Shown here piece by piece: positions 14,962 to 35,915 of a stretch of DNA of 64,000 nt (the stretch's first letter is position 1; each line of letters opens with the position of its first letter). The DNA comes from Octopus vulgaris. Taxonomy: Eukaryota. The translations under genes and the position numbers were made by a program. The DNA lies in NCBI GenBank assembly GCA_951406725.2, contig OX597815.1, positions 83,204,001 to 83,268,000 of the forward strand, written 5' to 3'. Below the pieces are notes generated by a model that had not been told where the DNA came from, searched no databases, and was given only the letters and a program-made list of their open reading frames with translations.

Positions 14962-15019
<58 letters not shown>

Positions 15020-15208
15020 GTTATCGCCATACTAATATGGCATTCTTATAAAAATAAGAAAAAAGCTGTCCGCTTATTAGCTCCATGAGGCCATCGCCTT
15101 AAGTTAGCTATTTGATACACAAACTGTATCCATATAACCTTCGAACAAGGGAGGTCAGTCGCTCCACACTACTTGACCGGCAGCTACAGAGATTGTCGGA
15201 AGCGACAC

Positions 15209-15279
15209 CTACTGGCTGGCTACGCTGCATTGAAAAGGGGCAATACCCCGAAACGCGTCTGTAGCTGCCGGTCAAGTAG
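15209..15279 (+). ncRNA. Type I hammerhead ribozyme, U3:A8 core variant (copy 1); predicted cleavage after C15259
   Basis: Stem I GCUGCA(15224-29)/UGUAGC(15260-65); core UUGAAAA; stem II GGGG-CAAUA-CCCC; GAAA; palindromic stem III ACGCGU; GUC triplet; stem I extends GGCUGGC/GCCGGUC and CUACU/AGUAG past a UAC bulge. Confidence 0.88.
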
Positions 15280-15570
15280 TGTGGAGCGACTGACCTCCCT
15301 TGTTCGAAGGTTATATGGATACAGTTTGTGTATCAAATAGCTAACTTAAGGCGATGGCCTCATGGAGCTAATAAGCGGACATCTTTTTTCTTATTTTTAT
15401 AAGAATGCCATATTAGTATGGCGATAACTATTATTTTCCGGGAACGCTGCCGCTGTTCTCTTTTAGAGAGACTTAGTTATTTTAATATTTCTATTATTGA
15501 AAACAAGTGGATGTATTCCACCGAAACTAGGTAAATAAAACCATCGAACAGAGATTGTCGGAAGCGACAC

Positions 15571-15641
15571 CTACTGGCTGGCTACGCTGCATTGAAAAGG
15601 GGCAATACCCCGAAACGCGTCTGTAGCTGCCGGTCAAGTAG
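15571..15641 (+). ncRNA. Type I hammerhead ribozyme, U3:A8 core variant (copy 2); predicted cleavage after C15621
   Basis: Identical to copy 1, 362 bp downstream. Confidence 0.88.
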
Positions 15642-15853
15642 TGTGGAGCGACTGACCTCCCTTGTTCGAAGGTTATATGGATACAGTTTGTGTATGAAAT
15701 AGCTAACTTAAGGCGATGGCCTCATGGAGCTAATAAGCGGACAGCTTTTTTCTTATTTTTATAAGAATGCCATATTAGTATGGCGATAACTATTATTTTC
15801 CGGGAACGCTGCCGCTGTTCTCTTTTAGAGAGACTTAGTTATTTTAATATTTC

Positions 15854-15890
<37 letters not shown>

Positions 15891-17374: not shown

Positions 17375-18088
17375 CAGTGTGCGATGGGTAAATTGTTTCC
17401 AATTTATATTTTAATTTCGCTAACGTTCTTTTGTCTTAGATTTTGTCCACTACACAGTATAGTAGAGTCAGTTGGGCACCATCTCTGAGAAAAACAGTAC
17501 CATAACGCAATCGCTCTTCCAGACTGCTGTATTGCTTGGTATTAGTGCCGGAAATTCTAATACGAATTTTTTCGAAGTGTTTGGGTGTGAATCTGAGGAC
17601 AGTGCATTCTGAGAACATGTACCGAAAATGATAAAAATCAAACATGCAGTCAACATCATACTGTTTAGTCATCACTAGTGATGGCGACGTCATGCCTCCA
17701 TTTAGCTTCCCTTACGGCATCATACTCAACACCGAGGCCTACAAGAAGTGCCAGGAGGAGGCAGTGGTGCCCTGGATCAAGAGAGTGGCTGCTGGAAGAC
17801 CCTGTGTCTGCCAACATGAATTTGCGTCATTCCACACAAGCAGGAGTCCCTACTTGTGACTGTCAGACAATTTATGCATCCACATCACCCCTAACATCTG
17901 GGCAACTAACTCCCCAATCTGCAACCCTTTGATTATTGTGTATGGCGCAGTTGAGTGAGAGACCAAGAAAACTCCTTGTAACACCAACTAATAGCAAAGA
18001 TTATGGGTGCGTTCATCAATTCAAACAAGGAGACCACCCAGAAGAGTTGCAGGAGATTCCGAAGTCGTCTGGTGGGCATGGCTGAAGC

Positions 18089-18090
<2 letters not shown>
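17375..18090 (+). mobile_element. Internally deleted Tc1/mariner DD37D (maT-type) transposon relic
   Basis: TA|cagtgtgcgatgggtaaattgt terminus; SDGDVMPPFSFPYGIILNTEAY...VVPWIKRVAAGRP...HITPNIWATNSPICNPFDY matches the maT catalytic region (WPPNSPDxNPLDY). Confidence 0.85.
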
Positions 18091-18152
<62 letters not shown>

Positions 18153-18223
18153 CTGTGTGTGTGTGTGTGTGTGTGAGTGTGCGTAAATGTTGAAATTAAT
18201 TAGTAAACAATAATATGGTAATT

Positions 18224-18500
18224 AATTGCAGCGTGGAAGGTGTTTGCAAGCCATTTAAGAAATTTTCGTCGCTTTAAGACCGCAACCTGTTCACTGACAA
18301 AACGAATTTTTGTCAGTGAACAGGTCGCGGTCTTAAAGCGACGAAAATATTCTGACAAATTAAACTTAATTGATGAAGTGAATCGAACGGCTTTTGTGTG
18401 TTTCTTAAATGGCTTACAAACACCTTCCACGCTGCAATTGTTTTCGTTTCAGCACGCGATCTCAGATCAAATCACTAGCTATGCAAGTACATCTCTGTAA
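18224..18500 (+). mobile_element. Penelope-like pseudo-LTR fragment with nested inverted repeats
   Basis: Outer inverted repeat 18224-18262/18401-18439; inner 41-bp hairpin 18262-18302/18308-18348; carries an HHR. Confidence 0.75.
18309..18359 (+). ncRNA. Type I hammerhead ribozyme, G3:C8 core variant; predicted cleavage after C18352
   Basis: Stem I UUUGUCA/UGACAAA (7 bp); core GUGAACA plus one extra G; stem II GUCGC-GGUCUUAAA-GCGAC; GAAA; palindromic stem III AAUAUU; UUC triplet. Confidence 0.75.
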
Positions 18501-18671
18501 TATGGTAATTGACAATATGGAACACGATAATTGATACAGAGCAGGATGGATGTAATCAGTTTGTAAGGATTGATCCTTCGTTGATTGCCATTATGTAAAG
18601 ATGAAAGAACAGTGATTGACGTCGTGAAAAAAATATTTATTTTACCGTTACATTATACAATACCTTGCCTC

Positions 18672-35024: not shown

Positions 35025-35915
35025 TATTATTAAAGCGGCTAGAGTCACAGCAAGACATAAGGAGGTCAAGAACCGAAACGAAAATAAGAACCAGAAAAAA
35101 GAGCAGAAGTTATCTAACTGGCAGGAGAAGGCCTTGCTGGCTGTTCACAAAGATAGTTGCAGTAAATAGTAGTAGTGAGACATGGTTATGTTTGTAGAAA
35201 GGAAGGGTAAAAAGGAAGACAAAAAGTGTGTTAGTAGCAGCACAAAATCATGCATTAAGGACTAATTGGATAAACACCAGGGTCGACAAATTCCAAATAG
35301 ATTCCTAATGTAGGCTATTCAAATCAAAAGAGGAAATCCCTACTGATATACTAAGTGAATGTATCATGCTTGCACAGAAATACAAGAAAAGACATGACAA
35401 CCTAGGGACAGTAATCCACTGGGAGTTATATAGAAAGCTAGGATTCGAACTTACTGATAAATGGTATGAACATGAGCCTAGTCAAGTACTAGAAAGCAAG
35501 AAATACAAGATGTTGTGGGACTTTAACATTCTGACCGACAGAGTAATAGATGCTAGAAAGCCTGATGTAGATGCAGTAGATAAAGACAATAGAAAGTGCC
35601 ACATAATTAACTTTACAGTCCCAAATGATGAAAAAAATCAATATGGGAGGTATAGAAAAAATAGCAAAAATACCAGGACGTAACTCTTAAATTACAAAGA
35701 CTAAGGAAAGTGCGAGTGAAATGTATCCCAGTAGTTATAAGCTGCATTAGAAACTTGCTCGAAACATTTCAACATATGCATAGAGGAAAGAGCTATAACA
35801 CGTAGTTTAATACAGCTCCAGTATTATTAGGGACAGCTAGAACACTTGGTGGGGTTTTAGGCATCTCAGGATACTCGTTGTATCCCGATGCTATGAATAT
35901 TTATTTTCCAATAGT
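35025..35915 (+). mobile_element. Dong/R4-clade non-LTR retrotransposon 3' relic (zinc knuckle plus restriction-like endonuclease)
   Basis: AAQNHALRTN...CRL...ILSEC..LAQKYKKRHDNLGTVIHWEL...KWYEHEP...LWDFNILTDRVIDARKPD...EKIAKYQD...LLGTAR; flanked by trinucleotide arrays. Confidence 0.9.

What the first reader, a model, noticed from the sequence alone, without database searches (positions are those of the whole stretch)
18224..18439. G3:C8 hammerhead variant locked in a nested fold-back
Seen: an HHR unrelated in sequence to the 15-kb one, with core GUGAACA (inverted 3:8 pair), an extra G after A9, a 5-bp stem II, palindromic AAUAUU stem III and a 7-bp stem I. Its 5' three-quarters is duplicated in antisense immediately upstream (41-bp hairpin, 5-nt loop, 1 mismatch), inside a second 39-bp inverted repeat. 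Established: G8 supplies the general-acid 2'-OH and 3:8 swaps keep partial activity. Inference: a distinct PLE family with a rare core; here the hairpin would mask the ribozyme and yield a pre-miRNA-sized dsRNA.
Basis: partly seen in the sequence, partly recalled or inferred. Interest (0 to 1): 0.72.

Follow-up and report, generated by a model that had tools for sequence, protein, structure and literature searches.

The report
Swapped-core hammerhead in a Penelope retrotransposon
A short fragment of a jumping gene with thousands of copies in this (likely octopus) genome carries a hammerhead RNA motif whose two paired core letters are swapped across the whole family; it would be a new natural ribozyme variant if it still cuts, while the hairpin around it is likely just the ordinary head-to-head way these elements insert.

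Summary
The motif and both inverted repeats are real. The locus (18224-18497, 13-bp target duplication) is a 5'-truncated, head-to-head insertion of an endonuclease-bearing Penelope-like element (PLE). The family has about 8,000 exact motif matches, and ORF-bearing copies (RT, CxxxCxxC linker, GIY-YIG) carry the same hammerhead. G3:C8 is the family state (94 of 100 listed matches, none C3:G8). Sister PLE families keep C3:G8 in the same architecture, with two-sided changes in stems I, II and III. I found no natural G3:C8 core in the papers I could search. The 'nested fold-back' is one inverted, truncated copy missing 52 nt. 42 of 79 sampled insertions are head-to-head, and 38 of those join the two PLE reverse-transcription start points, so a locus-specific lock or pre-miRNA is unlikely. 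This copy has a rare C17 (family U17, 90 of 92), predicted to trap G3. Cleavage is untested, and copy 5' ends do not pile up at the cut site. Two extras: G3:G8 copies are about tenfold above the decay expectation (possible intermediate), and some insertions carry arms from different subfamilies (two templates).

The parts
18211..18223 (+). Left target-site duplication (13 bp)
   Evidence: identical to 18498-18510
18224..18302 (-). Inverted, 5'-truncated copy of the element: begins at the first reverse-transcription start point (equivalent to 18439), lacks 52 nt (equivalent to 18349-18400), ends inside stem I
   Evidence: arms 39 bp and 41 bp, one mismatch each; start point shared with most head-to-head copies
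18303..18497 (+). Direct, 5'-truncated copy: 3' end of the PLE pseudo-LTR, ORF start and tail
   Evidence: 92% identical to the HHR-ORF junction of the ORF-bearing copy L138; 93-97% to the 39 other best copies
18309..18359 (+). Type I minimal hammerhead motif with G3:C8 core pair (18316:18321), bulged G, 5-bp stem II, palindromic stem III; predicted cut after 18352
   Evidence: covariation across sister families; cleavage not tested
18352..18352 (+). C17, a rare variant in the family (U17 in 90 of 92 sampled arms, C in none); predicted to pair with G3
   Evidence: PMC3884650 passage
18349..18400 (+). Segment missing from the inverted arm; its absence makes one inverted copy look like two nested repeats
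18409..18497 (+). Start (about 30 codons) of the PLE ORF from the ATG at 18409
   Evidence: same reading frame continues into the long ORF in L135 and L138
18440..18497 (+). PLE 'tail': sequence between the two reverse-transcription start points, present on one arm only
   Evidence: 3' ends of arms cluster at two sites about 60 nt apart; concept from PMC11167929
18498..18510 (+). Right target-site duplication (13 bp; its first three bases also match the element end)

Best explanation
This is a short, likely dead-on-arrival, head-to-head insertion of a Penelope-like retrotransposon whose family carries a minimal hammerhead motif with a swapped G3:C8 core; the motif is likely a weak ribozyme that needs a dimer or the element's protein, and the hairpin is likely a by-product of insertion. 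Shown: family, copy number, linked RT/GIY-YIG ORF, family-wide G3:C8 and U17, canonical C3:G8 in sister families, arms ending at two fixed sites, target duplication. Inferred mechanism: the GIY-YIG endonuclease nicks both strands of an AT-rich target about 13 bp apart. Each nick primes reverse transcription at one of two internal RNA sites (about 30 and 90 nt into the ORF). The two cDNAs point towards each other and are joined at their truncated ends by microhomology, giving an inverted repeat with a tail on one side; at least sometimes the two arms come from different RNA molecules. The left arm lost 52 nt, by RT jump or later deletion. The templates were mostly uncut. In the master RNA the swapped pair likely keeps position 8 in place, so some cleavage after U17 is plausible (about 50%). 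This copy's C17 is predicted to trap G3, so it likely cuts worse than the family.
For: ORF-bearing copies: 839-aa open frame followed by a pLTR with the same G3:C8 motif (L132). HHR-ATG-ORF continuity in L135 and L138. GIY-YIG above the Pfam cut-off in L091 (24.9 bits vs 22.6). 7,939 exact matches of an ORF-start 22-mer, control 0. Core: 94 of first 100 of 6,144 matches G3:C8, 0 C3:G8; 70 of 78 arms in a sample chosen without using the core. Sister families with the same layout and C3:G8; 98% of cells paired and 5 of 11 pairs with two-sided change, including 3:8, 10.4:11.4 and 15.2:16.2. Head-to-head in 48 of 85 loci (42 of 79 after dropping 6 segmental duplicates); 44 of 48 (38 of 42) have one arm at each start site. 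Mixed-subfamily arms in 4 of 16 pairs by eye, 2 of 11 by strict pattern. C3G/G8C partly restores a PLE hammerhead, which needs protein (PMC11167929). A G3-C8 variant is less active with C17 than with G17 (PMC3884650, 'data not shown').
Against: No cleavage data. Only 2 of 119 arms start within 2 nt of the cut site, about what even spread predicts (2 of 41 over 93 positions). About 210 G3:G8 copies, a mismatch expected to be inactive, were amplified or arose recurrently. A very young sister family has A9 changed to C in all 51 motifs read. These points say cleavage may not matter. ViennaRNA still pairs G3 with U17 at P=0.67. The covariation set is 10 hand-picked, related copies, the structure was drawn from them, and 15.2:16.2 is broken in 2 of 10. 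Arms of one insertion are far more alike at diagnostic sites (30/207 = 14.5%) than random pairs (50%), and the strict count of mixed pairs (2) is below the 4.4 expected for independent templates.
Confidence: 0.68

Rival explanations
1. The motif is a catalytically dead or irrelevant relic: the fold is kept for another job (binding the PLE protein, RNA-RNA pairing through the palindrome, or translation control) and the G3:C8 pair is drift or structural only.
For: No 5'-end pile-up at the cut site. G3:G8 copies are about tenfold above decay. A highly active sister family has C at position 9. HHR mutants do not affect insertion in vitro, and no RNA ends were found at the cut site for PAc (PMC11167929). 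G3 can pair with N17.
Against: Both partners of the 3:8 pair changed and Watson-Crick pairing was restored. U4, G5, A6, G12, A13, A14 and A15.1:U16.1 are invariant across the 10 aligned copies. U17, not C17, is the family state, as would be expected if a G3:C17 trap were selected against; other sister families also have U17, so this point is weak.
Confidence: 0.35
2. One reading: the nested fold-back is a functional lock that masks the ribozyme and yields a pre-miRNA-sized double-stranded RNA.
For: If transcribed, the region folds into a very stable hairpin (-130 kcal/mol for 18224-18439) that excludes the hammerhead fold. PLEs give rise to small RNAs in a rotifer (PMC3846280).
Against: Over half of sampled family insertions are head-to-head, with variable junctions. 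The nesting is a deletion. The copy lacks the upstream pLTR (about 1 kb in L132). It is about 80 bp of stem with a 52-nt side loop, more like an endo-siRNA source than a miRNA precursor (own knowledge).
Confidence: 0.07
3. The inverted arm arises by fold-back self-priming of one cDNA or antisense template (proposed in PMC3846280), not by two separate priming events.
For: Palindromic junctions with short loops as here (5 nt). 14 of 29 pairs are identical at all shared diagnostic sites.
Against: Arms end at two different fixed sites in 38 of 42 pairs. Either arm can be the longer at the junction. Some pairs carry different loop II haplotypes, including an indel, in both S1/S2 combinations. 6 of 7 two-armed G8 loci have G8 on one arm only. 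Ectopic gene conversion after insertion is not excluded.
Confidence: 0.2

Closest known systems
Minimal type I hammerheads of metazoan Penelope-like elements (Cervera and de la Pena 2014, PMC4209133)
   Same: In the pLTR; extra base between 9 and 10.1; G10.1:C11.1; palindromic minimal stem III; mostly single truncated copies; natural 3:8 covariation exists (U3:A8 in Schistosoma).
   Different: G3:C8 instead of C3:G8 or U3:A8; bulged base is G where their consensus has H; longer stem I (7 bp).
PAc Poseidon element of Anolis (Frangieh et al. 2024, PMC11167929)
   Same: Two internal RT start sites in the ORF start define a tail; AT-rich targets; HHR next to the ORF start; no RNA ends at the cut site.
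   Different: Their C3G/G8C is an engineered rescue mutant; here it is the natural family state. This element has the CX2-5CxxC linker that Penelope/Poseidon lack. Here the ATG lies 57 nt 3' of the cut site rather than inside the HHR; the tail is about 60 nt.
Neptune/Nematis clades of C-terminal EN+ PLEs (described in PMC8557442)
   Same: RT followed by a C-x3-C-x2-C linker and GIY-YIG; (TA)n-biased targets; inverted 5'-truncated copies; tail at one end.
   Different: Clade not resolved: no tree against named references was built.
Non-LTR retrozymes (PMC7229834; bioRxiv 10.64898/2026.07.22.740005)
   Same: Short, high-copy, non-coding-looking units with a type I HHR, related to PLE pLTRs.
   Different: Not in tandem arrays in the sampled loci; copies are truncated pieces of an autonomous PLE that include the ORF start.

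Membership tests
EN+ Penelope-like element | Single ORF with RT and C-terminal GIY-YIG endonuclease linked to the repeat | tested here: met
   L132 839-aa frame (RT-type YVDD motif seen directly; relatives named 'reverse transcriptase domain-containing') followed by the pLTR with this HHR; GIY-YIG Pfam hit in L091. The window copy itself holds only about 30 codons.
EN+ Penelope-like element | pLTR repeated at ORF start and end; inverted 5'-truncated copy; tail on one side | tested here: met
EN+ Penelope-like element | Intron in the pLTR/5' UTR | tested here: inconclusive
   Acceptor-like sequence just 5' of the HHR in 412 exact matches, and 50 of 119 arm 5' ends lie there; no donor or spliced read found
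Neptune/Nematis clades | CX2-5CxxC linker between RT and EN | tested here: met
   C-x3-C-x2-C in P0002; definition from PMC8557442
Neptune/Nematis clades | RT phylogeny places it in one clade | not tested
   no named reference sequences at hand
Hammerhead ribozyme (minimal type I) | Three-way junction with U4 G5 A6, A9, G12 A13 A14, A15.1:U16.1, H17 | tested here: met
   sister-family alignment
Hammerhead ribozyme (minimal type I) | Canonical C3 and G8 identities (CUGANGA) | tested here: not met
   G3:C8 family-wide; the 3:8 Watson-Crick pair itself is kept; no Rfam hit at gathering score
Hammerhead ribozyme (minimal type I) | Helices supported by covariation | tested here: met
   across about five families, 5 of 11 pairs with two-sided change (small, related, hand-picked set); none within the family
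Hammerhead ribozyme (minimal type I) | Site-specific self-cleavage | not testable with these tools
   needs a bench assay; genomic 5' ends show no pile-up at the site
Non-LTR retrozyme | Tandem head-to-tail monomers each with an HHR | tested here: not met
   sampled loci are single or head-to-head
miRNA or siRNA precursor | Transcribed hairpin with processed small RNAs | not tested
   the read-laying request for this locus did not complete; the runs on offer were contigs, which cannot show small RNAs

The most novel reading that the evidence does not exclude
A natural, active G3:C8 hammerhead whose origin is recorded in the genome as a two-step compensation (C3:G8 in sister families, then an amplified G3:G8 mismatch state enriched in older copies, then G3:C8). 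It sits in a PLE whose head-to-head insertions are built from two separate RNA molecules, each primed at one of the two RT start sites and possibly held together by the hammerhead's palindromic stem III, in the way retroviral genomes dimerise.
Probability: 0.25. Interest if true: 0.75.

Novelty: new variant of a known kind. Interest (0 to 1): 0.5.

Why it matters
Natural hammerheads were reported with C3:G8 and rarely U3:A8; G3:C8 appeared only as an engineered rescue in the papers I could search. Descriptors built on CUGANGA, and Rfam here, miss such motifs, so PLEs scored as hammerhead-less may need a second look. One genome offers C3:G8, G3:G8, G3:C8 and C9 versions in related elements of different ages. 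That is a ready test of the open question of whether PLE hammerheads must cut at all. Thousands of two-armed insertions with subfamily markers also let one test how PLE inverted repeats form. The hairpin at this locus is itself ordinary.

Tried and rejected
Rfam scan: no hit. Two independent nested repeats: rejected, one arm with a deletion. Deletion edge as a trace of ribozyme cleavage: rejected, since the edge (18348/9) is 4 nt 5' of the cut site and the other edge is 48 nt 3' of it. G3:C8 as decay of this copy: rejected. Retrozyme tandem array: not seen. Metagenome relatives: 7 loci, none with a convincing hammerhead on my scan, so the core state outside this genome's families is unknown. 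Sequencing runs: no RNA holder listed. Contigs of four coded organisms showed no other letter at 5% or more at core positions 3 and 8; this is weak, as no row does not prove sameness. Reads on the window locus itself: requests did not complete, so transcription is open. G3:G8 as a clean separate subfamily: not shown. No other column separates it fully, 4 of 25 copies are of the young type, and old-type G3:G8 copies are not more diverged than old-type G3:C8 copies (p=0.21). Splice donor and first exon: not found. Lunse et al. 2017 (PMC5785218) is not held. The Terminon paper was not looked up.

Full report
Observation. The hammerhead layout lies at 18309-18359: 7-bp stem I, core GUGAACA, one extra G, 5-bp stem II, GAA, palindrome AAUAUU and C at position 17 (18352). 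There is a 41-bp inverted repeat (18262-18302/18308-18348, 5-nt loop, one mismatch) and a 39-bp one (18224-18262/18401-18439, one mismatch). The left arms abut and share one base, so together they are a single antisense copy of 18308-18439 lacking 18349-18400. The direct copy continues to 18497, and a 13-bp direct repeat flanks the whole unit. Rfam reports nothing in the window at gathering thresholds.

It is a repeat family. The 201-nt stretch has 457 first-look candidates, 40 scored, at 93-97% identity apart from itself. Exact patterns give 3,175, 6,144 and 7,939 matches, each with 0 in the reversed control; two arms of one insertion count twice. The genome encodes, at 100% identity over the matched part, a protein that NCBI labels Octopus vulgaris, so the host is likely an octopus.

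It is a piece of an autonomous PLE. Longer copies extend 5' into about 1 kb of microsatellite-rich sequence that ends in an acceptor-like site just before the hammerhead. Widely spaced head-to-head pairs enclose ORF fragments with a GIY-YIG domain (L091: E 2.6e-5, above cut-off; L093: below cut-off). L132 has an 839-residue open frame, with RT-type motifs (recognised from my own knowledge), a C-x3-C-x2-C linker and the endonuclease, followed by the pLTR with the same G3:C8 motif. L135 and L138 show the pLTR running through an ATG (18409 in the window) into the ORF; both have a stop further on. The linker fits the CX2-5CxxC motif of Neptune and Nematis (PMC8557442, passages); I did not resolve the clade.

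The fold-back is the normal insertion form. I sampled without using the hammerhead: the first 100 listed places of an ORF-start pattern (all in the first 33 Mb of one contig, exact match, so biased to younger copies). I fetched 99 of them, which make 85 loci after merging 5 overlaps. 48 of 85 are head-to-head, and 44 of 48 have one arm ending at a site about 30 nt into the ORF and the other at a site about 90 nt in. Six loci with the same coordinates as another look like segmental duplicates; without them the counts are 42 of 79 and 38 of 42 (and subtraction). The window copy fits: left arm from 18439, right arm to 18497. These are the two internal RT start sites that define the PLE tail (PMC11167929, parts 1-2 of 4 read), and inverted 5'-truncated copies are typical of PLEs (PMC8557442, PMC3846280, passages). 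A loose search found shared flanks of 8 nt or more in 26 of 42 pairs and pure (TA)n in 12. A read-through RNA would bury the hammerhead, but nothing marks this hairpin as selected, and I have no expression data for it.

Two templates. Arms of one insertion differ at 30 of 207 subfamily-diagnostic positions (14.5%), against 152 of 3,087 other positions (4.9%) and 50% for random pairs. In 4 of 16 pairs where both arms span the hammerhead, the loop II haplotype differs, including an indel, two in each S1/S2 order (by eye). A strict pattern read 12 pairs and found 2 of 11 young-type pairs mixed, against 4.4 expected if independent and 0 if copied from one template. This favours two priming events, sometimes on different RNAs, over the self-priming proposed in PMC3846280. 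The numbers are small, and gene conversion is not excluded. One search for a prior two-template model found none.

The core. G3:C8 is the family state: 94 of the first 100 matches, with 2 G3:G8, 2 G3:U8, 1 U3:C8, 1 C3:C8 and no C3:G8; and 70 of 78 arms in the unbiased sample. A sister PLE 54% identical in protein has a hammerhead at the equivalent place with C3:G8. A pattern excluding G3 and C8 gives 2,310 matches against 172 in the control, most of those listed being C3:G8 motifs of the same layout. On 10 hand-picked copies from about five families, 98% of cells pair and 5 of 11 pairs change on both sides, among them 3:8. The copies are related and the structure came from them, so this supports the fold without measuring it; for three of these families I saw no linked long ORF, only a similar ORF start. 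Within the family there are only one-sided changes. The simplest reading is that G3:C8 is derived in this lineage.

A possible intermediate. With G at position 8 there are 218 matches, 97 of the first 100 G3:G8 and none C3:G8. By comparison, G3 with U8 or A8 totals 144 (71 U, 29 A of 100, my count), and C8 with A3, U3 or C3 totals 164 (62, 26, 12 of 100, my count). The neutral C-to-G rate (5 of 1,645) predicts about 18, at most about 54. G3:G8 copies are enriched in the older haplotype (21 of 25 vs 24 of 69, p=4e-5) and more diverged (3.2% vs 2.0%, p=0.005), but not more than old-type G3:C8 copies (p=0.21). 4 of 25 are young-type, and 6 of 7 two-armed loci have G8 on one arm only. An ancestral mismatch state and a recurrent hotspot both remain open; I put the former near 45%.

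Does it cut? Untested. For: the swap is compensatory; the engineered C3G/G8C double mutant partly restores activity in a PLE hammerhead that needs its protein and in general (PMC8495972, one passage); PLE minimal hammerheads cut weakly as dimers (PMC4209133, parts 1-2 of 4). Against: 78 of 119 arms contain the whole core and only 2 start within 2 nt of the cut site; G3:G8 copies exist; a very young sister family has C9 in all 51 motifs read. The window copy has C17, seen in 2 of its 29 closest relatives and 0 of 92 sampled arms. ViennaRNA pairs G3 with C17 at 0.98 and with U17 at 0.67 (no tertiary terms), and PMC3884650 notes, without showing data, that a G3-C8 variant works better with G17 than with C17 (passage).

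Novelty. Natural U3:A8 is reported (PMC3088659, section 8 and passages; PMC4209133). I found no natural G3:C8 in seven searches, in keyword passages of PMC6155905, PMC6765202 and PMC7229834, in part 1 of 5 of bioRxiv 10.64898/2026.07.22.740005, or in the searchable supplements of PMC4209133 (one file not searched). Figures are not held, and Lunse et al. 2017, with its many PLE variants, could not be read, so prior notice is possible. An unchecked note from this scan describes a G3-C8 candidate in a protist element; it is a lead, not support. Verdict: new variant of a known kind; the hairpin is ordinary; interest 0.5.

Noticed in passing
window 15014-15859: The other hammerhead family: two motifs with U3:A8 core (15230, 15592) in a 362-nt direct repeat, preceded by a 177-nt inverted arm; same head-to-head plus partial tandem layout, unrelated in sequence.
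   Followed up: no
L159-L188 (e.g. L164, L172): Very young sister PLE (about 99% identical copies, open frames up to about 1,310 residues, Asn-rich insert) whose hammerhead has C instead of A at position 9 in all 51 motifs read, while older copies of that family have A9.
   Followed up: partly
L216-L245: About 210 family copies with a mismatched G3:G8 core, roughly tenfold above decay and enriched in the older haplotype; 14 of the 100 listed lie in the first 5 Mb of contig C16, perhaps duplicates.
   Followed up: partly
L263, L266, L282, L285, L244: The two arms of single insertions carry different subfamily haplotypes in loop II.
   Followed up: partly
L014, L027, L050: Arms that skip the hammerhead core or join at stem I, apparently by its self-complementarity.
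   Followed up: no
L138:660-682 and L061-L090: Branch-point-like and acceptor-like sequence right before the hammerhead in long copies; short copies mostly begin there, several with the same few different bases, as if spliced; no donor found.
   Followed up: partly
window 17500-18090: Decayed reading frame resembling the C-terminal part of a Tc1/mariner transposase (translation; label recalled, not searched).
   Followed up: no
window 35309-35680: 124-codon frame resembling the restriction-like endonuclease end of a non-LTR element (label recalled, not searched).
   Followed up: no
L262, L301, L302, L306, L307, L310, L333: Seven loci share one insertion structure within 29 Mb of contig C1, suggesting a segmental duplication or a larger repeat carrying it.
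   Followed up: no
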